Of a stretch of 64,000 bases of DNA, positions 4,658-56,311 are shown one piece after another; within the stretch, counting starts at the first letter, position 1; the number at the start of each line of letters is the position of its first letter. Below the pieces are notes generated by a model that saw only the letters and a list, made by a program, of their open reading frames with translations, was not told the origin of the DNA and did not search any database. The stretch covers positions 62,001 to 126,000 of the forward strand of contig NW_026866822.1 in assembly GCF_026571515.1 (NCBI RefSeq), given 5' to 3'. The DNA is from Ruditapes philippinarum. Lineage: Eukaryota. The position numbers were made by a program, and so were the translations under genes.

Positions 4658-5602
4658 GACCTACCTGACCTAATCCTGTTATCCCCTAGTGGGGCAAAGG
4701 GCATCCACAACAGCTCTCCATCTGGGTCGGTTCATTGCTGCTCTTTTTGCTTCTGCCCAGGTGATATTGCAGCTTTTCAACTCAGCTTCTACTGTTCGTC
4801 TCCAGGTGGTTGTTGGTCTGCCTTTTCTTCTTTTACCTTGAGGATTCCAATCCAAAGCTTGCCTTGTGATGTTGTGTTGGGGTCGCCTCAGAATGTGTCC
4901 TATCCAATGCCATTTACGTTTCTTGATGGTGCTTGAAATAGATGACTGGCCTGTTCTATTCCACAGATCTGAATTGCTGATCTTGTTTGGCCATCTGATT
5001 TGTAGGATCTGTCGGAGGCATTTGTTGATGAATACCTGCAAGTCGTGTTCGTTTTTCTTGGTTTGCTTCCAGGTTTCTGATCCATACAAAAGAACTGATT
5101 TGACATTGGTCTCAAAGATTCTCAGTTTGGTCTTTTGTCTGATGTTCTTGTTTTTCCATAACGGTCTGAGGGTCACACAGGCATGCCTGGCTTTCCCAAG
5201 TCTTGATTTGATATCACTGTCAGCTCCTCCATTCTTAGAAACGATACTTCCCAGATATGTAAACTGATTGACGTCTTCGATGGATTGATTGTCTAGTGTG
5301 ATGTCCGAATTGTTCTGGGTATTTATTCTTAAGGACTTGGTTTTAGAGGTGTTGATCTCCAGGCCTGTTGATTTTGCTGTTGTGTAAAGAGCCGATGTTT
5401 TCTGTTGGATCTGCTGGAATTTGTGGGATAGTAGGCTCACATCATCTGCAAAGTCTAGATCTTCAAGCTAGGCAGTGAGTGACAATTGGATGCCTCTTGG
5501 TGGTGTCATGGAGGTTCTCATAATCCAGTCGATGACAACCGAGAAGATAAGAGGTGACAGTAGACAACCCTGGCGTACTCCTGTATGTACACTGAAGGAT
5601 GG
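4658..5602 (-). mobile_element. 5'-truncated RTE-clade non-LTR retrotransposon (RT C-terminal part) with one nonsense codon
   Basis: Translation GVRQGCLLSPLIF...A*LEDLDFADDVSLLSH...FTYLGS...LLYGSETW...WIGHILR...WNPQGKRRKGRP is RTE-type; 11-bp TSD GTAAGTTGAAT at 4647-4657 and 5603-5613; short AGGT(C) tail; in-frame TAG at 5469-5471. Confidence 0.93.
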
Positions 5603-6504: not shown

Positions 6505-9500
6505 ATGGGTAAACCGACTAAAAAACAATCTAAACGACCATATAACTACAGTAGAAATAGGAAAAATGAATGGAAGAAAACGAAGAAATTACCAGACATT
6601 AAATGGTATTAGCTCTTTCATTCAAAATCTCACTGTCGTACGGCAAATTGATTTTATTTTATAATATTCTGATATTTCATGCTAAATCACGAGAACCAAA
6701 ACAAATAAAGTTTCCTTTTAAAAGGAAAGGCTGGCACAGTTGTGCCTAGCTTAAGGTCTTCAGCATACCCGTTTATATACTATGACATGACGTGAACATG
6801 CCGCATCAGATGAAAAACAAAAATGTTAAATAGCGGCTTATAAAGTTTTGGAAGCCAGAACTAAGTTGTGCCTTCATCCCAACCCTTTAAAATTGTTTTT
6901 TTTTTTTTTTTGGTTTCAATTTATTATCACATTTTTTTTTAATTACAGTTTTTGTATATCATAAAGGGTTTATTTAGTTGTTTTTTTTTTTGGAAAAACG
7001 AATATTTTTTGTCAAAACGATTTGAAATCTATTCTCTATTGTATAAAACTAATCATAGGAACTCGAGAACGGGACCGCACATTTCATTTCCCCTTTTTCG
7101 CAGAGAAATCATTCGTTTGCTTTAAAGACAAGTAAATGCACTAAAATACTTCGTTACGTGGTACCAATAATAAGCATGTATCAACTATGTTACACGATCA
7201 CAAACACGATGCGCTATCTGTAGATCAGCATGTGGCAAAGTTAATGATATGCATAGATTACCTCACCATTGACTTGCGTTCAGTAGATCTAAATATAACT
7301 CGATCATGCGTGATTTGGTAAGCAGGACCACCCTTTGAAGACGGAATACTACTACAGTCACCATTCTCTTTTGTATAAAACTAATACAGACAAAAAGCAA
7401 TTATAAAAGAAACTAACTTTTGCGTCTTGAAAAACAATTGAAACGGAACAATTTCGTTTATAATTTATTACGGTTTAAACCGATAAATCAAGTAAAAATA
7501 GAAATCCTATTTATATCAACAAACTGGGATTACCGAATTAACTAAAATAGCTTAGATTTCCGTAATATTACTTCCTCTGATTCCGCAGTATGACGGAATC
7601 GCCCGAATTGTCACGATTGCAATCGGAACTACATTGGCTATTATCATTAATCCGAAGAGTGACGGAAAAGGCCGAAAAGTTGCGATTGGCTCGATTGCAG
7701 CTGGTTTCCCGTTCAATCATGCACTAACAATTGGAAACAGGAAACCACCTTACCGGAACAAGTTATTCAAAACAAATGGCTTGCAGCCGTGGCTGCAAGC
7801 CAAAATAAACGATAAAAAAAAACGATTAAAGAAATCACATATATAAAAAACATAAGGAAGGCAACAACATTCCCCGACCAACCACTACATTTACAAGGAA
7901 TAATTGTAAAAATGCCTGGAATTTACTTCCGAGCACATTTAATCAACGCAGAAAGAGATACAAGGCGTTTAAGGCGACTATTTTGCCCAAGTCGCCTAGA
8001 AACTTGATCCCTGCATCATTGCAATTATTTTCCATTTAAATAGATGCGTAATTAGCAAGTCTATATTTATTGTGCCCCCAAAAGTGGGGGCATTTAGATT
8101 TATCCTTGTCCATCCGTCCAGGCTATTTAAGAGAAGTAGGCGGCCAGTAGGAGTTCATTCCGTAACAATAGAATAAGGGGCCATGGCTCTCTATTAAACA
8201 AAAGAAAATAACAAAAGAAATGGCCCCTTGGTCCATTTAAGTGGCATGCCCTCCGTCCTTCCGTTTGTCTGTTCTCTTTTGTGTCGCACATAGCTCAAAA
8301 AGTATTTGACCTAGAGTCATGAAACTTTATAGAAATGTTGATCAGCATGTGTTGTTGTGCACCTGGCTATTTTCATGTGGATATATTTAGTATTTTAGAG
8401 TTATTGCCCTTGATTTAGTAAAAATTTACAATTAACAATTTTTTAACTTGTGTCACATGTAACTCAAAAAGTATTTGACCTAGTGTCATGAAACTTTATA
8501 GAAATGTTGATAAGCATGTGTAGTTGTGCACTTGGCTATTTTTGTATATTTAGAGTTATTGCCCCTGACTTAGTAAATATTTGCAACTTTCAACTTGTGT
8601 CACATGTAGCTCAAACAGTATTTGACCTAGAGTCATGAAAATTTACAGGAATGTTGATCAGCATGTGTAGTTGTGCACCTGGGTATTTTCATGTGGATAT
8701 ATGCTTACAGTGATTTTTCTACTTATATAACAGACTCTGAAAAAAGACTTCTTCCCAATTGAAATTTTCTTTAAAATCATGCAGTTTTCCTAAAAATCTG
8801 ATCTTAAACCAGCTTTTTTACTTCCCAAATCAGCAATTTTAGCGATAATTTTTCCCAAAATCAAAAGGCTAAGGCCTCTTCCCAGTAAAGAGAGAAAAAA
8901 CACTGGCTTAGTATTTTTAGAGTTATTACCCTTGACTTCGTAAAAATTTACAATTTTCAACTTGTGTCGCAGGTAACACAAAAAGTATTTGATCTAGTGT
9001 CATGAAACTTTACAGGAATGTTCTGTTTTGTCAGATTTATTGCCCTTGACTTAGTGAAAACTGTTCCATTATGTTGTGTTATTTGTTCCTCGAGTGCTTG
9101 AGTAAGAATCAACCAACTTTACAGGAATAATGATCGTAATCACTGTGAAGCTATGCACCTGGGGTTTTGCATTTGGACTTTTTTTTCAGTTTTGTTAGAG
9201 TAATTGCCCTTGACTTAGTATAAATTTGCAATTTTCAACTCGTTCATGCATAACTGAAAAAATATTTGACCTGTAGGTCTGAACGTTTACAAGAATGTTG
9301 GTCAGCCATGTACTTATGCACCTTAGGTTTTGCTTGTGGATTTATTCAGTATTGTAAAGTTCTTGCCCTTGACTCGATTTTTAGTTTTCAACTGGTGGCA
9401 CATGTAGCCTTCTTGCCCTTGACTCGATTTTTAGTTTTCAACTGGTGGCACATGTAGCCTAAAAATATTTGACCTAAAGTCATAAGATTGACAAAACAGT

Positions 9501-43005: not shown

Positions 43006-45558
43006 TTTTATCTCACCTGAGCATAAAGTGCGCCGAGCTAGGCTTTGTGATGGGAGTGTGTCTTCGTCCGTGGTTGTCCACAGTGTCCACAATTTCTTTA
43101 GACAACTTTCTTAAACTACTGGATGTATTTTTAGCTCACCTGTCACAAAGTGACAGGGTGAGCTTTTGTGATCGCTTTCCGTCCGGCGTCCGTCCGTCCG
43201 TCCGTCCGTCGTCCGTCCGTAAACTTTTGCTTTAAATGACATCTCCTCATAAACCACTGAGCCAATTTCATCCAAACTTCACAGGAATGTTCCTTTGGTG
43301 GTCACCTTTAAAAAATTTTCAAAGAATTTAATTCCATGCAGAACTCTGGTTGCCATGGCAACCGAAAGAAAAATCTTTAAATATCTTCTTTTAAACAACC
43401 CTAAGAGCTAGAGTTTAGATATTTGGCATGAAAACATCTTTCTAATGAGTGTCTACCAATTTTGTTTCAAATAAAAGCCCTGGGGTCAAAATTGGCCCCG
43501 CCCTAGGGGGTCATTGGATTTTCCCTAATATGCATATAGTAAAAAAACAATATCTTCTTTTAAAGAACCCAAAGAGCTAGAGCTAAGATATTTAGCATGA
43601 AACATTTCTAGTGAGTGTCTACCAAGTTTGTTCAAATAAAAGCCCTGGGGTCAAAACTGGCCCCGCCCCGGGGGGTCATTGATTTTTCCTTATATGCAAT
43701 ATAGTAAAAAACTTAAAAAATCTTCTTTTTAAAGAACTGTAAGAGCTAGAGCTTAGATTATTTAGCATGAAACATCTTCTAGTGAATGTCTACCAAGTGT
43801 TTGTTCAAATAAATGCCTTGGGGTCAAAATTGGCCCTGCCCCAGGGGGTCATTGATTTTCCCTATATGCATATAGTAAAAACTTAAAAAAACTTCTTTTA
43901 AAGAACCCAAAGAGCTAGAGCTAAAAGATATTTAGCATGAAACATCTTCTAATGAGTGTCTACCAAGTTTGTTCAAATAAAAGCCCTGGGTCAAAACTGG
44001 CCCCGCCCCGGGGGGTCATTGATTTTCCCTATATGCATATAGTAAAAACTTAAAAAATCTTCTTTTAAAAAACCGTAAGAGCTAGAGCTTAGATTTTGGC
44101 ATGAAACATCTTCTAATGAATGTCTACCAAGTTTGTTCAAATAAAAGCCCTGGGGTCAACAAAATTGGCCCCGCCCCAGGGTCATTTATTTTCCCTATAT
44201 TGCATATAGTAAAAACTTAAAAAATTCTTTTTAAAGAACCCAAAGAGCTAGAGCTAAAGGTATTTAGCATGAACATGTTTCTAATGGGTGTCTACCAAGT
44301 ATGTTCATTTAATAAAAGCCCTGGGGTCAAAACTGGCCCCGCCCCGGGGGTCATTGATTTTCCTTATATGTGTATATAGCAAAACTTAAAAATCTTCTTT
44401 GAAAAAAACCCAAATAGCTAGAGTTTAGATATTAAGCATGAAACATCTTTAAGTAAATATCTACAAAAAGTTTGTTCAAATAAAAGCCCGGGGGTCAAAA
44501 CTGGCCCTGCCCCAGGGGTGTCATTGTTTTTAAACTATATGCATATAGTAAAAAAAAAACATAAAAAAACTTCTTTTTAAAAACCCAATGAGCTAGAACT
44601 TAGATGTTTAGCATGAAACATCTCTTCTTATGGGTGTCTACCAAGTCTGTTCAAATAAACAAATAAAAGCCCTTGGGTAAAAATTGGCCCGGGGGTGGGG
44701 GGGGAACTATATACAGGTGAGCGACCTCAGGGCCATCATGGCCCTCTTGTTACCAAACTTAACAGGAATGATCCTTAGATGGTCCTCTGCAAACGTTATA
44801 TAAATAGTTTTAGTCTTGTGTATATATAGGTCACAGGAGCATAAACAAACCTTTAAAGATGAAATCTTCTTAGAAGCAACAGTGCATAGAGCTTAGATAT
44901 TTGGCATGTAGCATCACCATGTGGTTCTCTACAAAAGTTATAAAACTCATTTCCATGAGGTCAGAAATGACCCTGCTATATTGGCAACTTTACATAGACT
45001 TATATAGGAAAATACATTAAAGTCTCCTTTTATGAAACTGCGATGCCCATAGCTCAGATATTTGGCTTGTAGCATCACCCTGTAGTGCTCGACACAGGTA
45101 ATATAGACAATGTCCCTGTTGTCAAAAATGACCAGTTGACCCCACCCAGGCGGTTCATATTTTTATAGACTTGTATAGGAAAATCCAGTAAGACTTTTTT
45201 GTGAAACAACCATACACACAGCAAAGATATTGGACATGTATTCATTAGATCTCAATTACAATGTCAAAGGGTTAGATATTTTGCATGTAAAAAAGTTATA
45301 TAGATAATAACCCTGTGTCCAAAATGAACATGTGGAGGTCACTTAATTCATATTAACTTGTATAGGGAAGTACATTTATATCTTTTGTAAAACTGCAATG
45401 CCTAGAGCTTAGATATGTGTCATGAAGCAGACATTTACAAATACTTTGAAAAATATAAAGCTTTGGTAAAAGAAATGACAAACCCAATGTGCCTGAAATA
45501 CTTTTCTAGCAATGTATTTCAGGTTAGCGATTAAGGGGGCCATGTTGACCTTCTTGTT
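43006..45558 (+). mobile_element. Older HINE-like element (outer) interrupted by a younger related element
   Basis: 5' TTTTATCTCACCTGAGC; 3' CAGGTTAGCGA..GGCCATGTTGACCTTCTTGTT; body resumes at 44752 (ACCAAACTTAACAGGAATG). Confidence 0.7.
43128..44751 (+). mobile_element. Complete HINE-like element (inner) with ~8 x ~169-bp tandem units
   Basis: TTTTTAGCTCACCTGTCAC..GTGACAGGGTGAGCT hairpin, (GTCC)n, units AGAGCTAGAG at ~43404, 43573, 43742, 43911 and onward, 3' ACAGGTGAGCG + AGGGCCATCATGGCCCT hairpin + CTTGTT. Confidence 0.88.
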
Positions 45559-46797
45559 GTTTTTTTTTGTTTAACTTAATAATGTACCTGTTCTCCTTTT
45601 TATAGCCCCCTCCCACCCCACAAGAAAAGAAAAAAAGAAAATGACGGAATTTGAATTGTGTGAAACTACACTGCTTAGAGCTAAGATATAAGTTAGAAAA
45701 CATATTGCCTGCTAGACCTCTACTTGAAAAGTTTTATGAATCATGTACCTAGGGGTAAAAATGCCATCAGCCAGGGGTCATTAAGTATCATAGGGATAAT
45801 TAAAATGAAACTTTTTTGGGCAAGTTTCACGAATGGGGGTCTCTTTCGTAGCTGTAAGATTTTGTTCAAAAAAAATTTTGGGGGACTGTATATTGTCCCA
45901 GTTTTGCGGTTCTCTTGTTTACATGTATATACATGTCAAGTATAGTTTAAGCTTTAGTTTTTGTCAATATTTTTATTTCTATTTTGTTCTAGTTTATTAA
46001 ATATGTTAAATTGTACTGATAATTGCAAGTATAAGTGCTAAACTGATTTGGTTAAACATTATAGAACCTGCCCGTTACAGGGTAGATAAATCATGTTAAG
46101 AAGACAATAACAAACTTGACTGTGTGCAAATCAGTTACCTCCCTTTGCTAAATTTTCTAAATTTTTCTATGTAATTTTATTATAATAGCATTAAAATGTA
46201 CATGTATGTGCACTTTTATTACTCCTTTAAACAGTTTAATGTTAATATGTTTTGATAAACATATTTACGCGCTGGCATACAGGAATATATGCCAGTTTTT
46301 TAGATGGACATTATTTTTTGAATTATAGATTTTGTTAATTTTTGAGTAATTTTTTAGAAGCGATTTAGTGTAGATTTTAGTGTGTGTTGTTTCTTAAGTA
46401 TAATTTGATATAAAAAATGATCCAAAAAACTTGTTGGCTTAAGTGAAGAAGTGTTTTGAACAGATATTTTGCTTTTATATTTTAAGTTTATATTTTATGT
46501 ATTGTTAAGACTGTTGGATGTTTTTATGTTACTTAAAGATCTGAATAAATTTGTAAAATACATCAATGTCAAAATTGTTTATATGTCTGTTTCAAGACGA
46601 ATTAAATGAAATCAATTGGTGATGAAGAGTTCGCAATACACGTATATATGTTGGTGATCCTGTAATTGTGTGGTCAAAGTTAGATGGTTTTGGTTATTTG
46701 CTAAAATACAAAAAATAACGACAATCAACAGGGACAAAACGTCTCTTATATTACATGTTTTATGTTTGATTACAGACATTTCAAGCTTTTTGGCTCG

Positions 46798-48455
46798 TTA
46801 AGCACATTTGTAAGCACCTGGACCGTCATGGTATGGAAGCATCTTTCTTATAATAGGTGATTTAGTAGTGGTAGGTTCTGGAACCCACCTGCAGTGCGTG
46901 CCATACCCGCAACCACAATGTCCGTTCATTATCTCAAACACACCACAGTGATCGCCCATCTGTCTGTACTTCTCGCACACACCTATAAATATATAAATGT
47001 GCGTGTTATAACAAGATACCTACTCTAAATCCCTCCCAATGTGTGCACGTCACGGAGAAGCCACACGGCAGGTGAAGGTCAAGTCATCTTGAGTACCAGA
47101 GAATTAGTTGACCTGTCGTGACTACCCTACTTCGGGAGGAATGTAATGCATTGTTATTATAAGTTTGGCTAAGATATATCATTCATTGCGAGTGATTTGC
47201 CGCAAGTTTTATATAGATTTTATTTTACCGATGAAATACAATATTTCATTGGTTAGCATATTAAGATATGTTCAATCCCTGAAATGTTGAGATAAATTTC
47301 AGAATTAAAAATATGTTGTTTTTTTCTATTTTAATGTTACATATATATTAAAACAAGAGTTATATACAACATAAGATAACCGACAGCTTTATGTACCTGT
47401 ATCATGATGTTGGTGAAGGTGTGGGAGCAGGGCCTGTCGTTTACTAACCACCATAAATTCCGGCTGAATGTAGCAGCATTCCCCAGTTCCGCAATCCGTG
47501 TTATTTTTGCACACTACAGCCTGAAAAGCAGGAAGAACTTATTATTTTAAATAAGCAACACTTAGCTTGTTTTCCCGTGAACGTGAAACCTATAAATATA
47601 AGTCAGATTCCTAAAAAATGATACATGTATCTTTATTTTGGCAGATGTATTTTATCATGTATGGACAACATTTCCCAATATTCTGGCCCAGAAAAAAATA
47701 TTTCAGTTTCTAGCTTTGAACATCAAAATATTTTGACTAAGGGGTAAAACATGGTATCATAGAGACAAAACACGGCATTATTAGAGGGACAATAAAGAAG
47801 ACAAGAAGGCAACACAGGGTATCAAAAGGGCAGACGGACAGTACAGGAGTAGGACATCAGAGAAAATGCAAAATAGATAACCAGCAAGCATGAATGATTT
47901 CATCTGTTTGAGTTTTTGAATGGTTATTAAATGTTTAATTTTAGTAAGTTTAAACATTAAAGTCAATTGGTCTATAATGTAAGGTCTGTAAGACAATGAA
48001 TAATTAGTGGATAGTATTTAGTATAACACATAACAACAAACCACGAACGAATTATACATGGAAGTTGTTGGCAAGTGCGAGATATATGATCCGATATAAC
48101 ATATACACAAATGTATTTACATAGCAGGTAATGTTCTAGAACAAAATATTATCATTCATCAGATAAATGGTCATTCTAAATCACTTACAACTTTTTAAAA
48201 GTTTTGTAAAGCAATACTTCGTAAGAAAATCCAAATGATACATTTCTATCATTTTCTTTCAATATTTGATATATATGTACTAATGGAAAATGTGCCCATG
48301 TAGAATTATCAATTTTACCACCAAATCAAAAAATTGAACTATTTAGAACTTACTGCAAATATTCCTGCATGCTTTTACCTCAGACATTCTGTTGTTTTAG
48401 AACTTACCTCAGAAATTCCAGAAATAACGCCTAAAATTAGTATTGCGAAAAACAT
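46798..48455 (-). CDS. Secreted prokineticin/astakine (colipase-fold)-like 10-Cys protein A, 118 aa; exons 48455-48408, 47520-47397, 46982-46798
   Basis: MFFAILILGVISGISE|AVVCKNNTDCGTGECCYIQPEFMVVSKRQALLPHLHQHHDTG|VCEKYRQMGDHCGVFEIMNGHCGCGYGTHCRWVPEPTTTKSPIIRKMLPYHDGPGAYKCA*; signal-peptide exon, GT-AG introns in phases 0 and 1, Cx5Cx4CC..Cx9C..CxCx5C..YxC spacing. Confidence 0.88.
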
Positions 48456-49658
48456 CCTCTTCTGTTATATAGATCTAGTACAACTACAATTGTTTGACGC
48501 GGATGTACTTCAACATTTATTTATAACGACTTTATCTTATCTATCAAAGACTATCCTTAAAATATTGAATAATAATACTAAATGTACTTGAAATAAGTCA
48601 GGAATCAAGGTCAAAATGTTTTAAACAATTTGTACTGCTTTACAGTCATATTCAGATATGAGCGTGCTTGAAAGTCAGCAAGAGACATTAAGTTGTGGAG
48701 TGCATGAAAGTGTATATTGTAAAAGTCAGGGGTATACATATTTCTTGAAGTATGCCTTCGATTAATTTAGTAATTCCTCACTTTTATATGGTGTCCGATT
48801 TGTGCTATTTCCTATTACTTAGTAGATTGTTTTAGGGACGAAAAGGTGAAACTACGAAGTTACTTCTTTCGCCTGGAGGGCTAAACTTCGAAAATACCTC
48901 TCGCGAAATCATAAAAACACGAAACATATGATGTTTCGCTTTGTTGCCTACTGATTGTCGTATACTTGCATGGCGGGGCGAAAATATTTTCGTGTGGTGG
49001 CCTTTCGACCTGCCTTACAATAATACGACATAAAGGTGTTTTCGCCTCCTATTTGCCGCACCTTTGTTTTGCCGCTCTAACAGGAATTTCAGAAATAAGT
49101 TTTATATACGACAATAACGACGGTGGAACGCAATTTTAGTATCTTGATATCCTACATTTGCAGGAAACTAATATAAAAGACAATGGTTCTCATATGTCGA
49201 GATTTTCGTTTTATTGAAAGTATTGTTTGTGTTGATGTATATCAAATATCGTGCATGATATTGTTTATATGTGTATCGAATCTTGTTAGGGAGAGGATTT
49301 AAAGTTTAATAAATGTGTTATTTACATACCAGATCTGCAAAAATTTGATCCAGGGACATAAGTATGCCCCAGTCTGAACAAATAAACTGTAAAGGCATGA
49401 TTGTTGAGCAGTACTATACTATCTCCTGCAATCGCAACTTTTCGGCCTTTTCATAAAGCTTCGGATAATTTCGGAAACATTTCTGCGTGTCTTTTATTGC
49501 AATGTCATGTATAAAGAGGAAGCCAATATGTACATACAACGAAGGAATTAGATAATTTGTTTATTAATCTATAAAAACATTTTCTTAATTATTTGTCATT
49601 GAGTCATTTCGTTATAATTCACAAGATGAACTTCTCAAGATTTCGTTGCTACCATCCC

Positions 49659-51478
49659 CTACTGTCTTGTTGCGCACCTATAGTTGCCAGGTCCTGGATG
49701 GTAAATCATGCCTCTTTTAGCAGAAATTGTCGTTGGCTCTGGAACCCACTGACAACTTAGTCCAGATCCGCACCCACAATGCCCATTGGCCGTCTCTAGT
49801 GGGTAGCAGAGATCGCCTTGTAAGCGATAGTTTTCGCAAATACCTGGGAAAAGTCCACATACGGTTTATCTACATAAGTTATCATTGTAAATCTTAAAAG
49901 TGTATTTCAGAAACAGAAATACTTTTAAAATCAAATCAAACACAAAAGCATTTTCGGCATAATATCGTCTTTAAAAATATCTATAAATAAATACCAGCAT
50001 GTACATGTACCTTGTTTTTGAATTTGAAGACTTACAGATAAAATAAAACAGTGGATCTTAAGTGAATGTAGATATCTACTAAAATACAAAAAAACTACAA
50101 CACCAAATATAATAAACCGATATACATTTATATAGTATGATTAGCTAAAGGTAAAGGTTTAACATTTATATATGAAATTAAACATGATCATTTTAGGTGA
50201 TCTAAGAAAATCGTAAAATTCAATAATAAATACGTAACCTCATAAGGGCATAATACGAAAGAAAAGGGCATATACATATACGAGTAAATATACAACAGTA
50301 TATATATCCTTTTGATTAAGTCAACCATGAAAAATTGAACAACTCCGTTTGTATGTCCGTTTGTTCACGTTATTTTTATATAAAACTTAAAACTAATTTT
50401 TGTAAACCATTTCCTACTTCTGACCTCTAACAACAGCTCAAAGCATGGACAATCACAAATGTTAAGCAGAAGTTAAAGATAAATACATTTAAATAAGTGA
50501 GTAATATTGTGGTAAACATTAATACATCGTTTTATAACAATCATGTTTATCAACAAACTAAATCATATATACCTGCATCATGATGTTGATGGAGTACGGG
50601 AAGTACTGCTTGCCTCTTGCTGGCCACGAGAAATTCTGGCTCTATATAACAACATTGACCTGTACCACACTCACCGCTTGTTTTACATTTAGCGACTGCC
50701 TGAACAAAATATTAATTAAAAAATATATATATCATGTTCTTGATTAAAACAACAGTATTGTAAGATTTAAAATTACTTGACCTGTCCTTAGTCCAGACCA
50801 CGTTTGCTTATTCCAGACTACGTGTGCTTATTCTAAACCAAGTTTGCTCATTCCTACTCACGTTCGCTTATTCCAAACCACGTGAACGCTAAAGCAAAAA
50901 TCAGGTTTAAACGACCCTAATTTTGTTTAAAATGCTGTATTAAACATACACCGTAATCACAATATGTTATCGTACTTTATAATTCGTGTAAGTTAAAAAA
51001 AACTTCAACAAAAACAAAAAGCGTCAAATTTGCAATGAAACCAACACGTTTTAGGATTTAGGAATAGCATAATATGGAGTACGATATCTTTAAGCACATA
51101 CTAAATTTACTGAGCTTATGCAAATTCAATTCCATTAGTTTGACCATGAACCGTAAATAAAAATTGAAACATGCATTTCAACAATCACTGTTTGAGTATA
51201 ATTACATCGTAAATGTTTATTTTCTTAAAAAATGCCACACTTGCTGTTTAATACAATCATTGCAACAGCACAATATCATTGTACGTATTAAATCTTGTAT
51301 TAAATCTTATATACGATGCAATGCCAGTCACATGTAAGAAAAAATATATATACTGACTTTTTATTGTTTTTAAAATGATTTTAAAATGATTATATATAGT
51401 AATATAAAAAACGTATCTTCATACCCCAGACGACACCCCACAGAAGAGTGCTAACACAAACGCACCGTAAATAACCAT
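49659..51478 (-). CDS. Secreted prokineticin/astakine-like 10-Cys protein B, 121 aa, tandem paralog of A; exons 51478-51425, 50699-50573, 49843-49659
   Basis: MVIYGAFVLALFCGVSSG|AVAKCKTSGECGTGQCCYIEPEFLVASKRQAVLPVLHQHHDAG|ICENYRLQGDLCYPLETANGHCGCGSGLSCQWVPEPTTISAKRGMIYHPGPGNYRCATRQ*; same exon structure and Cys frame as A; upstream TATAAA near 51535-51540. Confidence 0.88.
50795..50885. repeat. Short 21-bp tandem repeat (TTATTCCARACYACGTKYGC), ~4 copies
   Basis: Direct inspection; intron 1 of gene B. Confidence 0.6.
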
Positions 51479-51779
51479 TCTGAAGTTTTATGTTAAATGT
51501 ACCGAAGGAATTTTGTCCCTGCCTTATCTAGTCGTTTATAACGTGACAAGAGGCCGTGGCAGATAAGGTTTAGGTCGTGTTAGAAAAAGGAACGCTTTGA
51601 AAACATCAGAATGGTGAATTAATAATGTACTACACACACTTTGTTTTTGGCATTTTGTGTTGAGATAATGTTAAATGTACCATATGATATAATCAAATTT
51701 ATTGTCATATTCAATAATTGTTGTAGGCAGTTCACTAGATAATATCAAATATCCAGCCCTTAAACTCTCTGAGATAATA

Positions 51780-54371
51780 CAGTGTGGCAATACCACGTAA
51801 CCTGGACGTCATTTTCGGCATCATTTCCAAGACAAATATTGCTCGATTCGAAAAGGAAAATAGCCGTAAGTATTTTATTTCTGTACCGATTTCTTTGGGA
51901 TATGCACCATTCTTCGGCGAAAAATATAAGCTTGCCATAGAATAGTGTTTTTCGTTCAGTTTATGAGCCGTTTTATCAAACACTTTGCATAACCTTGAAA
52001 GTTGCTTGTATACGAGCGGACTTCAGTTGCAAGATATTTCGTTTTCTTATGTTGTCTGATCTACGCCATGATTTAAAAGTCGTTATTACATCAACCGGAG
52101 TACGGAAGGAAAAATCTTACTTAAATATGTTTATATTGCAATTATGTATGGCGTAAATCTGAACTTTCTCTTCAATTGACAATTATGGCACCAGTTCCAA
52201 GCCAAAAATTTGGACTACAGTTTAAAGCAGTTTTCAGAATTGGTTACAAGTGCGAAGAAACATGAATTAATTCCGTTCTCTTTTCTTTTAACGATGGCGT
52301 CAAATGGTAAAACAATTATGAAAACAATAAATAGGGGATGGACTCTCTCACTAATGTTCTTAAACATACTGTTGCAAAAAATATATAGTTTGTTCCATCT
52401 CTTTGTTTTAATTTTGCGTCATTTGTTTGTTTTCCTAGGGATGCCCTAACAGAGTTATGTATGCCCGGTATCCCAACCTTTGGCTTTTTAAGGACGTTTT
52501 CGGGAGTTTTCATATCAAAACTGTTCTAAAAAGTTTCTTTAAACTTGTCACGTGGTTAGAATATGATAACAGAAACATTTTAGCGGAAAAAATGGGGTCT
52601 TCACTAATAAAATCGTGCGCATAAAATGCCAAAGATTTAAAAAGATATCATTTAGTGAAATAATTTATATACGCCTATATGTATAACTTTAATATGTATG
52701 CCACCAGTTCCAAGTCGAACAATGTAGACTACTGTAACAGTTTAATTAAAGCGGTTTTCAGAATTGGTTGCAAATGTGAAGCAACATGCCTTTCGTTCTG
52801 TGTCTATAATTATGCCAACCAAGAAAAACATTTTATTATACGACGTAATGTATATTAAATAAATTATGTACACAAATTATTCTTACTCGCTGCGCAATAA
52901 GTGATTTCAAAAGTCTGTTTTGTAAAGCAATTTATTTGCTCCTTAATCATTGCTCTTTCACAGTTATGATTGTGAAATATCTATGAGTGTCGTGAAGCGA
53001 TACAAATTGCTGACGTCAAAAAGAGAAAAAATAGAATCCCAAAAAAACACCCACGATTGAAAATATGGCAGCCTCGGTTTGACCCAGTCAGTTCATGGAC
53101 TGTACTGGAAAATGCAAACTACCGTCCACTCCTCCCCGAGAACATAGTCTTCATACCATTCGAAGTGAAATGGATTTTTTGTGTACATACTTTATTTAAT
53201 ATACATTACGTCGTATAATAAAATGCTTTTATTGGTTAACATAATGATAGACAGAGAACGAAAGGCATGTTGCTTCACTTTTGCAACCAATTCTGAAAAC
53301 CGCCTAAACCTGTATTCTGAATTGTTCGAGTAGGAACTGGTGGCATACATATTAAAGTTATATACATATTGGTGTATTTAAATTATTTCACTAAATAATA
53401 TCTTTTTAAATCCTTGGCATTTTATGCGCACGATTGTATTGATGAGGACCCCATTTTCCTCTTAAAATGTTTCTGCTATCATATTCTAACCGCGTGACAA
53501 GTTTAAAGATACTCAGTTTTGATTTTGCCTATATGTCTATATGAAAACTCCCGAAAACGTCCTTATAAAATCCAAATGGTAAATTGGGATACCGGGCGTA
53601 CATAACTCTGTTAGGGTATTCCTAGGAAAACAAAGAAAAAATAACGCAAAATTAAAACAAGCAAATGGAACAAACTATATATTTGTGCAGCAATATGTTT
53701 AAGAACATTAGTGAGAGAGTCGATCCCCCATTTATTGTTTTCATTCTTTTACCATTTGACACAATCGTTAAAAGAACATGACGTAACGAAGCTGCCTGCG
53801 TTATTACCATGACAATGCATAATTTGTTTCTGAAATAACAGACTATTCTATAAGAATAGTTGTTATTATAGATAGAGAACGGAATAAATGTTTCTTCACA
53901 TTTGTAACCAATTCTGAAAACTGCTTTAAACTGTAGTCCAAATTTTTGGCTTGGAACTGGTGCCATAATTGTCAATTGAAGAAAAAGTTGAGATTTATGC
54001 CATAAATCATTGCAATATAAACATATTTAAGTAGGATTTTGCCCTCTGTACTCCCGGTTGATGTAATCACGACTTTTAAATCATGCCGTAGGTCAAGTAA
54101 TACAAGAAAACGAAATAGCTTGCAACTGAAGTCCGCTCGTATACAAGCAACTTTCAAGGTTATGCAAAGTGTTTGATAAAACGGCTCATAAACTGAACGA
54201 AAAACACTATTCTATGGCAAGCTTATATTTTTCGCCGAAGAATGGTGCATATCCCAAAGAAATCGGTACAGAAATAAAATACTTACGGCTATTTTCCTTT
54301 TCGAATCGAGCAATATTTTTTTGGAAATGATGCCGAAAATGACGTCCAGGTCACGTGGTATTGCTACACTG
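51780..54371. mobile_element. 2.6-kb foldback (palindromic) non-autonomous Tc1/mariner-type element
   Basis: TA|CAGTGTGGCAATACCACGT ... ACGTGGTATTGCTACACTG|TA; left arm 51780-52876 is the reverse complement of right arm 53178-54371; ~300-bp spacer; no transposase ORF. Confidence 0.9.
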
Positions 54372-56311
54372 TAATATATGTAAAGGTTTTACTAAAATTA
54401 TGCTATAAGGAAAGTCCCCCACCCTCCGCCCCTGAGTTTCATGGGCAGGCTAAATTTGGGAGAGATCTTAAAATATGGGTGCTACCATCATATAACGTGG
54501 GTGGTGACAAAGATCTACATAGTTAAAGCAAATCCATCAAGAAATAAAGGAGTTCTAGGAAAAAATGTATTTTATAGGAAAATGAGAAGATATATCTCTT
54601 TCAATATGGCTGTCAGGACCTTATAACATAAGATATTGGTGATGATAAGGAACATATATTAGAATTAATTGGTAAATCCTAGATAAGGAAGCTTTAGTAC
54701 AATATAAAGTTTATTTTCAGAACAATTTCAAGTGTAAAGGGGGTTTTCGTCTTGAAATACAAGTGCCAGACCTTGTCACATACAATATGGTTGATGATGA
54801 TGATAAGAAACATATGTTTGAAGTATATCACCCATTAAATAAAGAAATAAATGTAAAATGTAACATCATTTTAGGCAAACAGTAAGTTTAGAATGTGAGA
54901 TAGTTCTGGAACTATTGATACTAATGTAGTCTCAAAATCACTCTGTCACACCATGCATATTTTCTCAATTTCAATTTGTGTTCTTACAAATTAATTCTTG
55001 TTCTGTAACTGGTATATGGTAAATATATAAAAGAAAACTGTCACAATTTCAGATATATTTACTGTTTTACACTCAAAATATACATATAACATCTTAAAAT
55101 ATTACAAAAACAATATGGCTGTATTATTGTATAATACAAAACACATTTAGATATTCCATTACAAAAACAAAGTATGGCTGTATTATATTGTATAATACAA
55201 AACACATTTAGATATTCCAAAGTGCAATAAGAAAAATTAAGGACTTGATTTCCCATTTGAAGTATTTTATGGACCTCAACAGCTGTTCAATGTATAAATG
55301 TTTGTTCAATATAAGTGGCTACAATAACAAAGTATCAAAAATTGTATTATTGCATAAGACAAAATACAATTAGATATTCCAAAGTGAAATAAGAAATATT
55401 AAGGATTAGATTTCCAAAATGCAGTATTTTATGGACATCACTAGCGATTTATTGTATTGATTTTATCAAATTTCAGTATATTTTACATTACTGTAGTTTT
55501 TTATGCTTCTGACAAAATATTAAAACGAAAAAAAAATGAAAACGTTCCCACTAACATAATATAAAATAAACAGTTTATCAGATTGTACATTGCAGGTTGC
55601 AACACAAACATTTTTGTATATGTTGTAACCTAAGTGTAGAAACAATTAAATAATTACATAAGGAGTTAACCGTTTACTGCACTAAGGTAACTATGTATAT
55701 TTTACCAATTCATCAAACTTTTTAGCATTCATTAAGTTCAGTAAAAATTAAGTATCACAGTCTACAAGTTCAGCTATTGGTGTATTTCAATAGATTTGTG
55801 TGTGATGTCATTTGAGCTCAGATTATGGTACATGTGTATTGACATAAAAACTACTGGCATCAGTAACAACTATTTTAGTATCTAGTCAACAACTTTGTGT
55901 CATGACTTTATTCCGTCATTGAAAATTTTTGAAAAATATTTAATTCACATCTGGCATGGGTACATAACGAACTTTTGCGCAGCAGTTACATGTGGGTCAG
56001 TATTTCTATATGCAAAGCATACAAAAATTGTTAATAAATAAGTAATCAAGATTTTACATCATACTTATTCACATTCACATAATTACAAACAATATTTCAA
56101 TATATTCAACTTCTTTTTTCTTCTTCTTCACATCACAAACTTAAATTGAAATTTCTTTTTATATTAATACGCTCCAGTCTGTTGTTTTGGTGACTATACT
56201 TTTTTTTCAATCAGATCTTTCACTTTTTTGAGAAGATTAAGATACTTCCACATGTACGATACTAGTCAGCAGTTGAGATTTATCCTAGTATAATGTCACG
56301 GTGAATCAGTC

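What the first reader, a model, noticed from the sequence alone, without database searches (positions are those of the whole stretch)
46798..51478. Tandem prokineticin/astakine-fold genes whose loops carry conserved prohormone-like dibasic sites and a His-rich segment
Seen: two 3-exon paralogs, almost entirely missed by the ORF track, each with a signal peptide and 10 Cys. Both have SKR|Q in an expanded Cys4-Cys5 loop followed by L(H/Q)QHHD, and a second basic pair (IIRK|M in A, SAKR|G in B) in the Cys9-Cys10 loop. These are conserved although introns and signal peptides are not alignable. Established: this Cys frame is shared by vertebrate AVIT prokineticins, crustacean astakine haematopoietic cytokines and some venom peptides; KR is the canonical convertase site; an exposed N-terminal Gln can cyclise. 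Inference: the mature products may be disulfide-linked 2- or 3-chain hormones/cytokines with a pyroGlu, His-rich (possibly metal-binding) chain start, i.e. a little-studied molluscan signalling family. The predicted N-termini (AVVC, AVAKC) resemble but lack the AVITGA motif needed by vertebrate prokineticin receptors.
Basis: partly seen in the sequence, partly recalled or inferred. Interest (0 to 1): 0.7.

Follow-up and report, generated by a model that had tools for sequence, protein, structure and literature searches.

The report
Convertase-nicked prokineticin-like clam proteins
Two neighbouring, spliced clam genes encode small, likely secreted proteins with a predicted prokineticin/colipase fold, whose two long loops carry hormone-processing motifs kept across molluscs and related phyla, so they are likely cut into two or three disulfide-linked chains that would act as a signal, which nobody has yet tested.

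Summary
Both genes are real. All four introns appear as joints in RNA contigs, and the products equal NCBI LOC132733800/801 (118 and 121 aa, 10 mature Cys). AlphaFold models match Dickkopf CRD2, Bv8 and colipase (best Z 6.8). Pfam Prokineticin is not reached and AVITG is absent.

The genes belong to a spiralian subfamily (bivalves, gastropods, Lingula, Seison). Site 1, [IV]x S-KR in the Cys4-5 loop, is KR/RR in 86 of 94 full frames, and in 39 of 41 in a set chosen without that loop. It has convertase grammar: the pair ends KR 46, RR 24, KK 5, RK 0, and is never followed by Pro. Site 2 is weaker (45 of 66 pairs, 14 single Arg); gene A has the atypical RK there.

The His-rich and pyroGlu ideas are not family traits: HHD in 1 of 78 representatives, Gln after the site in 29 of 74.

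Best reading: convertase-nicked, disulfide-linked 2-3-chain secreted ligands. Cleavage, receptor and tissue are untested. Relatives are catalogued beside prokineticins; my 10 paper searches found no account of this processing. This scan noted the same pattern earlier in oyster DNA (e1-8655743).

The parts
51425..51478 (-). Gene B exon 1 (coding part): hydrophobic leader, likely signal peptide, 18 aa
   Evidence: joint of 725 nt in X2 and X3
50573..50699 (-). Gene B exon 2: Cys1-4 and the long Cys4-5 loop
   Evidence: joints of 725 and 729 nt; P0004
50610..50621 (-). Gene B site 1, S-K-R|Q (residues 45-48), predicted convertase site
   Evidence: family conservation
50577..50591 (-). Gene B HQHHD segment, seen only in venerid proteins
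49659..49843 (-). Gene B exon 3: Cys5-10, second long loop, stop; poly(A) tail seen at about 49548 behind an AATAAA
49713..49718 (-). Gene B site 2, K-R|G (residues 103-104)
   Evidence: family
48408..48455 (-). Gene A exon 1 (coding part): hydrophobic leader, likely signal peptide, 16 aa
   Evidence: joint of 887 nt in X2, X6, X3, X14
47397..47520 (-). Gene A exon 2: Cys1-4 and the long Cys4-5 loop; one N-glycosylation sequon at residue 22
   Evidence: joints; P0001
47434..47445 (-). Gene A site 1, S-K-R|Q (residues 42-45), predicted convertase site
   Evidence: all four codons differ synonymously from gene B
47401..47415 (-). Gene A HQHHD segment, seen only in venerid proteins
46798..46982 (-). 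Gene A exon 3: Cys5-10, second long loop, stop
   Evidence: joint of 414 nt in X6, X1, X3, X14, X7
46843..46848 (-). Gene A site 2, R-K|M (residues 103-104); atypical order, the Mercenaria orthologue has KR
51535..51540 (-). TATAAA 62 nt before the gene B ATG, with three GATA-type motifs within 200 nt (lead only)
48520..48525 (-). TATAAA 70 nt before the gene A ATG, with three GATA-type motifs within 200 nt (lead only)

Best explanation
Genes A and B are spliced, transcribed tandem paralogues encoding likely secreted proteins with a predicted ten-cysteine colipase/prokineticin fold, and a basic-residue proprotein convertase likely nicks them in one or both enlarged loops, which would leave two or three disulfide-linked chains that likely act as a local signalling ligand. 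Shown: gene structure, splicing, the motifs and their conservation. Predicted: the fold. Inferred steps: (1) the leader is removed and five disulfides form in the family pattern C1-C4, C2-C5, C3-C7, C6-C9, C8-C10; (2) a convertase cuts after S-K-R in the Cys4-5 loop (about 0.75) and after the basic site in the Cys9-10 loop (about 0.6 for B, about 0.4 for A); (3) a carboxypeptidase trims the basic residues. No spacer peptide is released: the chains (A 26/58/14 aa, B 27/55/17 aa, with 4, 5 and 1 Cys) stay tied by two bridges and one bridge. The cuts would free new chain ends on a stable core, and these could do the receptor-contacting job that AVITG does in vertebrates (signalling role about 0.5; receptor unknown and not a prokineticin receptor).
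For: Site 1 is KR/RR in 86 of 94 full frames (shuffle maxima 25 and 32; neighbouring loops 7 and 1 of 94), with the Ser 9 residues after Cys4 in 62 of 91 while the rest of the loop varies in length. Bias control: 39 of the 41 representatives that pass the search threshold on Cys5-to-end alone have KR/RR. Order asymmetry: last two basic residues KR 46, RR 24, KK 5, RK 0, against RK 7, KR 6, KK 6, RR 5 elsewhere in the domain; no Pro at the next residue in 74 cases, against 11% Pro further on; L/A/V two residues after the site in 52 of 74. Synonymous sites between A and B are saturated (pS 1.01, pN 0.25; pN 0.12 from Cys4 to KR) while SKRQ is kept. All 7 own-genome copies whose exon 2 was found keep S-basic run-Q. 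Both sites lie in loops without regular secondary structure, with pLDDT 61-76 against more than 90 in the core. By eye, 0 of 16 arthropod, 0 of 7 amphioxus and 0 of 4 vertebrate sequences on one supplement page have KR/RR in this loop. Precedents: the disulfide pattern and two-chain spider toxins cut from one precursor (PMC6832493); insulin and complement chains (PMC9296861); PK2L cut to PK2beta (PMC8877203).
Against: No protein-level evidence of cleavage exists here. Site 2 is less constant: 45 of 66 pairs, 14 single Arg, 7 neither, and gene A has RK. Homologues are related, so counts are not independent events, and the tree is poorly resolved (10 of 91 branches starred). My independent database search without site 1 failed because of its length window. 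On the same supplement page only 2 of 5 named spiralian prokineticin-like sequences have the pair, so it is a subfamily trait. The residues that a cut would expose vary widely (Q, A, D, G, F, E), which fits a single receptor-binding motif poorly. No family motif was found in the scallop ganglion neuropeptide list. Tissue of expression is unknown. The preferences against Pro after the cut and for aliphatic flanks are recalled, not found in print here (searches gave nothing).
Confidence: 0.6

Rival explanations
1. The proteins stay single-chain, and the basic pairs are a conserved surface patch for heparan sulfate, anionic membranes or a receptor.
For: Vertebrate prokineticins use basic motifs to bind heparin (PMC8877203). 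Disulfide-rich folds can shield sites. 14 of 16 arthropod sequences on one page keep a single Arg at a similar place in a short loop (by eye), so an ancestral non-cleavage role for an Arg here is possible. No MS data.
Against: A charge patch would not predict 70 runs ending in Arg, 0 RK, and no following Pro when Lys outnumbers Arg 144 to 79 elsewhere, nor free exchange among KR, RR, KKR, RKR and RRKR. The loops are long and are the least confident part of the models.
Confidence: 0.2
2. The proteins are processed as proposed but are secreted effectors (mucosal defence peptide, toxin-like modulator or colipase-like digestive cofactor) rather than hormones.
For: At least 8 copies in this genome and tandem pairs in several bivalves (locus numbers). 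Oyster prokineticin-like transcripts are mainly in the digestive gland (PMC8398477). Three or more GATA-type motifs lie upstream of 4 of 6 candidate start codons, against 17 of 319 background tiles (post hoc). The nearest Atlas cluster bears an automatic spider-toxin label and others carry colipase Pfams at 18-20%.
Against: A and B have orthologues in Mercenaria (support 96 and 87) and pN/pS is low, which is unlike fast-evolving defence peptides. It was not established that the oyster genes in that paper belong to this subfamily (accessions differ from those of P0023's cluster where comparable). Colipase matches are weak (Z 3.5).
Confidence: 0.2
3. They are single-domain Dickkopf-like ligands of LRP5/6 that modulate Wnt signalling.
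For: The best sequence-profile hits (E 2e-4 to 1e-3) and best structural hits (3s2k_C, Z 6.8 and 6.4, rmsd 2.3 over 61-63 residues) are Dickkopf CRD2.
Against: There is one domain only, whereas protostome Dkk1/2/4 are described with two cysteine-rich domains (PMC6425005). Z under 8 shows a shared fold only. AVIT-family members showed no Dickkopf-like activity (PMC6832493). The Cys4-5 loop is 27 aa against 8 aa in Dkk1.
Confidence: 0.07
4. The point of the cut is to expose a pyroGlu-capped, His-rich metal-binding chain start.
For: LHQHHD is kept between A and B despite saturated synonymous sites, and in both Mercenaria orthologues as HQHHD. Several bivalve members have 2-3 His here.
Against: HHD occurs in 5 of 94 frames and 1 of 78 representatives; 59 of 91 have no His after the site; Gln follows in 29 of 74. 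Paralogues in the same genome lack the His cluster.
Confidence: 0.08

Closest known systems
Lophotrochozoan prokineticin-like proteins (De Oliveira 2019, PMC6425005; Cragi-prokineticin 1-5, PMC8398477; CgAstakine, cited there, not read)
   Same: Signal-type leader, ten-Cys frame, no AVITGA. Members of this very subfamily (Bathymodiolus, Perotrochus, Lingula, Barentsia) stand in De Oliveira's supplementary file 3, in the stretch holding prokineticins and Dickkopfs (no per-sequence label seen). UniRef auto-names several homologues 'Prokineticin domain-containing'.
   Different: The passages I read do not mention loop cleavage or multi-chain products. This subfamily has a fixed 9-residue Cys6-7 spacing with an NG-aromatic/His motif and two enlarged loops. 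Figure 2 of PMC8398477 marks likely convertase sites on all precursors and could already mark KR in oyster prokineticins; I could not view it.
Vertebrate AVIT family (PK1, PK2, Bv8, MIT1)
   Same: Ten Cys, predicted colipase fold (Bv8 Z 5.2 and 4.7), three coding exons with the leader on exon 1 (PMC8877203). PK2L is also cut proteolytically.
   Different: No AVITG. The Cys4-5 loop is 27 aa against 11 and lacks the Trp. PK2L cutting gives a truncated ligand from a splice insert, not a conserved nick. Protostomes are reported to lack prokineticin receptors.
Arthropod astakines
   Same: Invertebrate secreted ten-Cys prokineticin domain without AVITG.
   Different: Short Cys4-5 loop with a single Arg motif and no KR/RR in 16 of 16 seen; longer Cys6-7 loop; short Cys9-10 loop.
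Dickkopf CRD2 and colipase
   Same: Best profile and structure matches.
   Different: No first cysteine-rich domain; different loop lengths; no functional link tested.
Two-chain spider toxins (CsTx-13, omega-agatoxin-IA) and insulin (works-like analogy)
   Same: One disulfide-rich precursor cut in a loop into disulfide-linked chains (PMC6832493; PMC9296861).
   Different: Other folds; there a spacer between two sites is excised, whereas here each loop has one site, so it would be a nick.

Membership tests
Colipase-fold superfamily (prokineticin/Dickkopf CRD2/colipase) | Ten Cys with adjacent CC (3-4) and CxC (7-8) | tested here: met
   Spacing 5,4,0,27,9,9,1,5,28 or 25
Colipase-fold superfamily (prokineticin/Dickkopf CRD2/colipase) | Two-subdomain colipase fold | tested here: met
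   Models with pLDDT 85.7 and 81.6; top hits Dkk1 CRD2 (Z 6.8, 6.4), Bv8, a spider prokineticin-like fold and colipase; profile E 2e-4 to Dkk2. Z is under 8 and Foldseek E is above 0.001, so the match is moderate.
Colipase-fold superfamily (prokineticin/Dickkopf CRD2/colipase) | Disulfides C1-C4, C2-C5, C3-C7, C6-C9, C8-C10 | not testable with these tools
Pfam Prokineticin (PF06607) | Score at or above the gathering cut-off | tested here: not met
   No hit for P0001; 3 of 21 aligned homologues hit weakly, best E 0.014
Vertebrate AVIT prokineticins | N-terminal AVITG | tested here: not met
   Predicted starts AVVC and AVAKC; the residues before Cys1 are not conserved in the family
Vertebrate AVIT prokineticins | Trp24 in the Cys4-5 loop | tested here: not met
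   No Trp in this loop of A or B; feature from PMC8877203
Vertebrate AVIT prokineticins | Activation of PKR1/PKR2 | not testable with these tools
   Needs an assay; receptors reported absent from protostomes
Arthropod astakines | Short Cys4-5 loop with R-[YF]-S and long Cys6-7 loop (as seen in the sequences) | tested here: not met
   27-aa and 9-aa loops in A and B
Arthropod astakines | Haematopoietic activity | not testable with these tools
   Needs a haemocyte assay
Dickkopf proteins | Two cysteine-rich domains (CRD1 plus CRD2) | tested here: not met
   Single domain of about 102 aa after the leader, confirmed by RNA joints; definition from PMC6425005
Convertase-processed multi-chain precursors | Signal peptide | tested here: inconclusive
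   Hydrophobic leader on its own exon; no SignalP run
Convertase-processed multi-chain precursors | Conserved K/R-Xn-K/R site in an exposed segment between disulfide-linked parts | tested here: met
   conservation and order; loops; rule from PMC9296861
Convertase-processed multi-chain precursors | Cleaved chains detected in vivo | not testable with these tools
   Needs peptidomics
Bivalve FYFY ten-Cys neuropeptide precursor and IWMPxxGY precursor | Their cysteine frame and motifs | tested here: not met
   Scallop precursor sequences in the PMC5996578 supplement have no CC-type frame like this (by eye)

The most novel reading that the evidence does not exclude
An old spiralian family of two- and three-chain hormones built on the colipase fold: convertase nicks in two loops switch on the ligand by creating new chain ends that replace the vertebrate AVITG address, which would explain how protostome prokineticin-like proteins signal without prokineticin receptors.
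Probability: 0.25. Interest if true: 0.75.

Novelty: new variant of a known kind. Interest (0 to 1): 0.5.

Why it matters
Prokineticin/astakine-like proteins of protostomes are orphan ligands: they lack AVITG and the receptors are reported lost (PMC8557429, PMC8398477). If this subfamily is nicked, recombinant single-chain protein would be the inactive pro-form, so receptor screens and bioassays with it could miss the activity, and standard peptidomics without reduction would miss the chains. The prediction is cheap to test, with defined masses (2.8, 5.9-6.5 and 1.5-1.9 kDa against 11.1-11.4 kDa intact), in farmed clams and oysters. It would also be a further case of insulin-like multi-chain maturation on a different fold. 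If it is not cut, this is an ordinary unannotated member of a known superfamily.

Tried and rejected
Pfam on single exons gave nothing useful. Single-sequence PDB search gave only E 0.5, and Foldseek had no match at E <= 0.001.

An independent database search with an exon-3-only profile searched only proteins of 201-2000 aa and returned one. The bias control therefore rests on the in-script threshold test and on 3 of 3 own-genome paralogues found by exon 3 whose exon 2 was present.

The careful tree did not finish. The quick tree has 48 of 91 branches open and no outgroup, so I do not claim where the site arose.

Raw RNA reads of X21 and X23 (4-6% of each run read) had next to no exon cover. 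The tissue is unknown, so this is at most a hint of restricted expression. Contig depths were not used to rank expression.

Two loose contig ends were not found in the window, so no extra 5' exon is claimed.

FYFY and IWMPxxGY neuropeptides were considered and are unrelated. The His-rich and pyroGlu signature was rejected as a family trait.

Locus-id paper searches found nothing. Searches for printed convertase subsite rules found nothing. No complex prediction was run, because no binding partner is claimed.
Full report
Observation. The minus strand holds two three-exon genes, B (51478-49659) upstream of A (48455-46798). Introns are GT..AG in phases 0 and 1, and the frames are open for 121 and 118 aa, with 65 of 115 aligned residues identical. 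RNA contigs give exact joints for all four introns: 887 nt (X2, X6, X3, X14), 414 nt (X6, X1, X3, X14, X7), 729 nt (X2, X6, X1, X14, X7) and 725 nt (X2, X3), from six study codes; four of these runs are only guessed to be RNA. The spliced products are identical to database proteins labelled uncharacterized LOC132733800 and LOC132733801 of Ruditapes philippinarum. The leaders are hydrophobic; SignalP could not be run. Of 11 coding variants from RNA contigs that I checked, 8 are synonymous and none changes a basic site.

Fold. Neither protein reaches Pfam Prokineticin; 3 of 21 close homologues hit it weakly (best E 0.014). A 90-sequence profile finds Dickkopf CRD2 at E 2e-4 to 1e-3, and MIT1, Bv8 and colipase above E 0.4. 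AlphaFold models (mean pLDDT 85.7 and 81.6) match Dkk1 CRD2 (Z 6.8 and 6.4, rmsd 2.3, 61-63 residues), then Bv8, a spider prokineticin-like fold, colipase and draxin. Z under 8 is moderate, but profile, Cys frame and ranking agree. Both basic sites fall in loops without regular structure, with pLDDT 61-76.

Family. A profile search of 1.84 billion representatives gave 145 hits. Of 163 proteins held, 94 have the complete ten-Cys frame; the other 69 are mostly exon fragments and were left out of the counts. I looked up names for 20 hits: bivalves, gastropods, the brachiopod Lingula and Seison, plus two unnamed; several are auto-labelled 'Prokineticin domain-containing'. The own genome has at least 8 loci; two may be alleles of one another and one is broken. 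A and B each pair with one of two adjacent Mercenaria genes (support 96 and 87, quick tree), and their synonymous sites are saturated (pS 1.01, pN 0.25), so the tandem pair is old.

Site 1. KR or RR lies in the Cys4-5 loop in 86 of 94 frames. The maxima of two sets of 500 shuffles are 25 and 32, and the next two loops have 7 and 1 of 94. The pair follows [IV]-[VAM]-S, with the Ser 9 residues after Cys4 in 62 of 91, while the part after it varies from 0 to 29 aa. Because the search profile contained this motif, I took the 41 of 78 full-frame representatives that pass the library threshold on Cys5-to-end alone: 39 have KR/RR. Among the 75 of 78 with a run of two or more basic residues, the last two are KR 46, RR 24, KK 5 and RK 0, whereas elsewhere in the domain the four orders are even and Lys is commoner than Arg. 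The next residue is never Pro (0 of 74; 11% Pro further on), and the one after is L, A or V in 52 of 74. This fits the general convertase rule K/R-Xn-K/R with carboxypeptidase trimming (PMC9296861, passages); the finer preferences are recalled. The sequences are related, so these are not independent trials. By eye on one supplement page, 0 of 16 arthropod, 0 of 7 amphioxus, 0 of 4 vertebrate and 2 of 5 named spiralian prokineticin-like sequences have KR/RR in this loop.

Site 2. A basic pair lies in the Cys9-10 loop in 62 of 94 (KR/RR 59; shuffle maxima 24 and 29). In the set chosen without that loop, 45 of 66 have a pair, 14 a single Arg and 7 neither. Gene B has KR. Gene A has RK where its Mercenaria orthologue has KR, so A may be cut only once.

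What fails. HQHHD occurs only in the four venerid proteins; HHD is in 5 of 94 frames and 1 of 78 representatives, and 59 of 91 have no His after the site. Gln follows the site in 29 of 74. The His-rich, pyroGlu chain start is therefore a local feature, not the family signal.

Mechanism. With the family disulfide pattern C1-C4, C2-C5, C3-C7, C6-C9, C8-C10 (PMC6832493, passages; not measured here), cuts at both sites give chains holding 4, 5 and 1 Cys (A 26/58/14 aa, B 27/55/17 aa), joined by two bridges and one bridge. Nothing but the basic residues would be lost, so this is a nick and not the excision of a spacer as in insulin or two-chain spider toxins. I put cleavage at site 1 at about 0.75, at site 2 at about 0.6 (B) and 0.4 (A), and a signalling role at about 0.5. 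Vertebrate prokineticins need a free AVITG end for their receptors (PMC8877203, passages); these proteins lack it, and protostomes are reported to lack the receptors. New chain ends could fill that role, but they vary widely, and this step is inference only. Tissue is unknown. Oyster prokineticin-like transcripts are mostly in the digestive gland, the family motifs are absent from a scallop ganglion list, and GATA-type motifs are frequent upstream (post hoc). Together these lean towards a non-neural secretory cell, which also keeps the effector rival open.

Known context. Members of this subfamily stand in supplementary file 3 of De Oliveira 2019, in the stretch holding prokineticins and Dickkopfs (PMC6425005: passages, a supplement search and parts 57, 64, 65 of 400; no per-sequence label seen). 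PMC8398477 (passages, section 24, supplement table rows) describes five oyster prokineticins without mention of loop cleavage, but its Figure 2 marks likely convertase sites and I could not see it or Figure S1; this bears on novelty. Also seen: PMC8557429 (passages, supplement search, part 25), PMC5996578 (passages, supplement search), PMC3890597 (passages; the Platynereis precursor has peptides cut off before the domain) and bioRxiv 10.1101/485722 (passages). Ten searches found no description of multi-chain processing in this fold; subscription journals, including the CgAstakine paper, were not covered. An earlier unreviewed note of this scan reached the same reading on oyster DNA (e1-8655743). 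I saw it after my own tests, and it is not independent support.

Verdict. A real pair of genes, and a new variant of a known kind: colipase-fold, prokineticin-like proteins with a conserved convertase-type site that predicts multi-chain maturation. They are not AVIT prokineticins, astakines or Dickkopfs by defining features. Confidence 0.6 for nicked, disulfide-linked secreted ligands; interest 0.5.

Noticed in passing
window 49329 to 47519 (minus strand): One contig of run X14 splices from gene B's 3' region (GT at 49329) into gene A exon 2: a read-through transcript that skips A's leader exon.
   Followed up: partly
L018:2359-2860 (G000 contig C2635): A paralogue whose exon 3 holds ten tandem copies of a 50-bp unit in the Cys9-10 loop, with stops and a frame break: a pseudogene or an assembly artefact.
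   Followed up: partly
L019:3830-4561 and 7160-8059 (G000 contig C882): A second tandem pair of more distant paralogues, both with SKKR|Q at site 1; one lacks a basic pair in loop 2.
   Followed up: partly
window 48456-48655 and 51479-51678: TATAAA at -70 and -62 from the ATG and three GATA-type motifs in each 200 nt; 17 of 319 window tiles have three or more.
   Followed up: partly
window 51774-54377: Long inverted repeat with arms 82-95% complementary, foldback or MITE-like, just upstream of gene B; RNA contigs pile on parts of it.
   Followed up: no
window 44000-45700: Degenerate tandem repeat of about 170 bp period.
   Followed up: no
window 55783 to about 59750 (minus strand): Spliced neighbouring gene with a charged coiled-coil-like part and a Cys-rich end; no Pfam hit at the cut-off for three exons scanned.
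   Followed up: partly
window 4682-5467 (minus strand): Reverse-transcriptase fragment with DUF6451, a likely retrotransposon remnant.
   Followed up: no
P0034, P0118, P0121, P0141 and a Barentsia sequence in PMC6425005 file 3: Relatives with two to six tandem domains; the entoproct two-domain protein has both basic sites in each domain.
   Followed up: no
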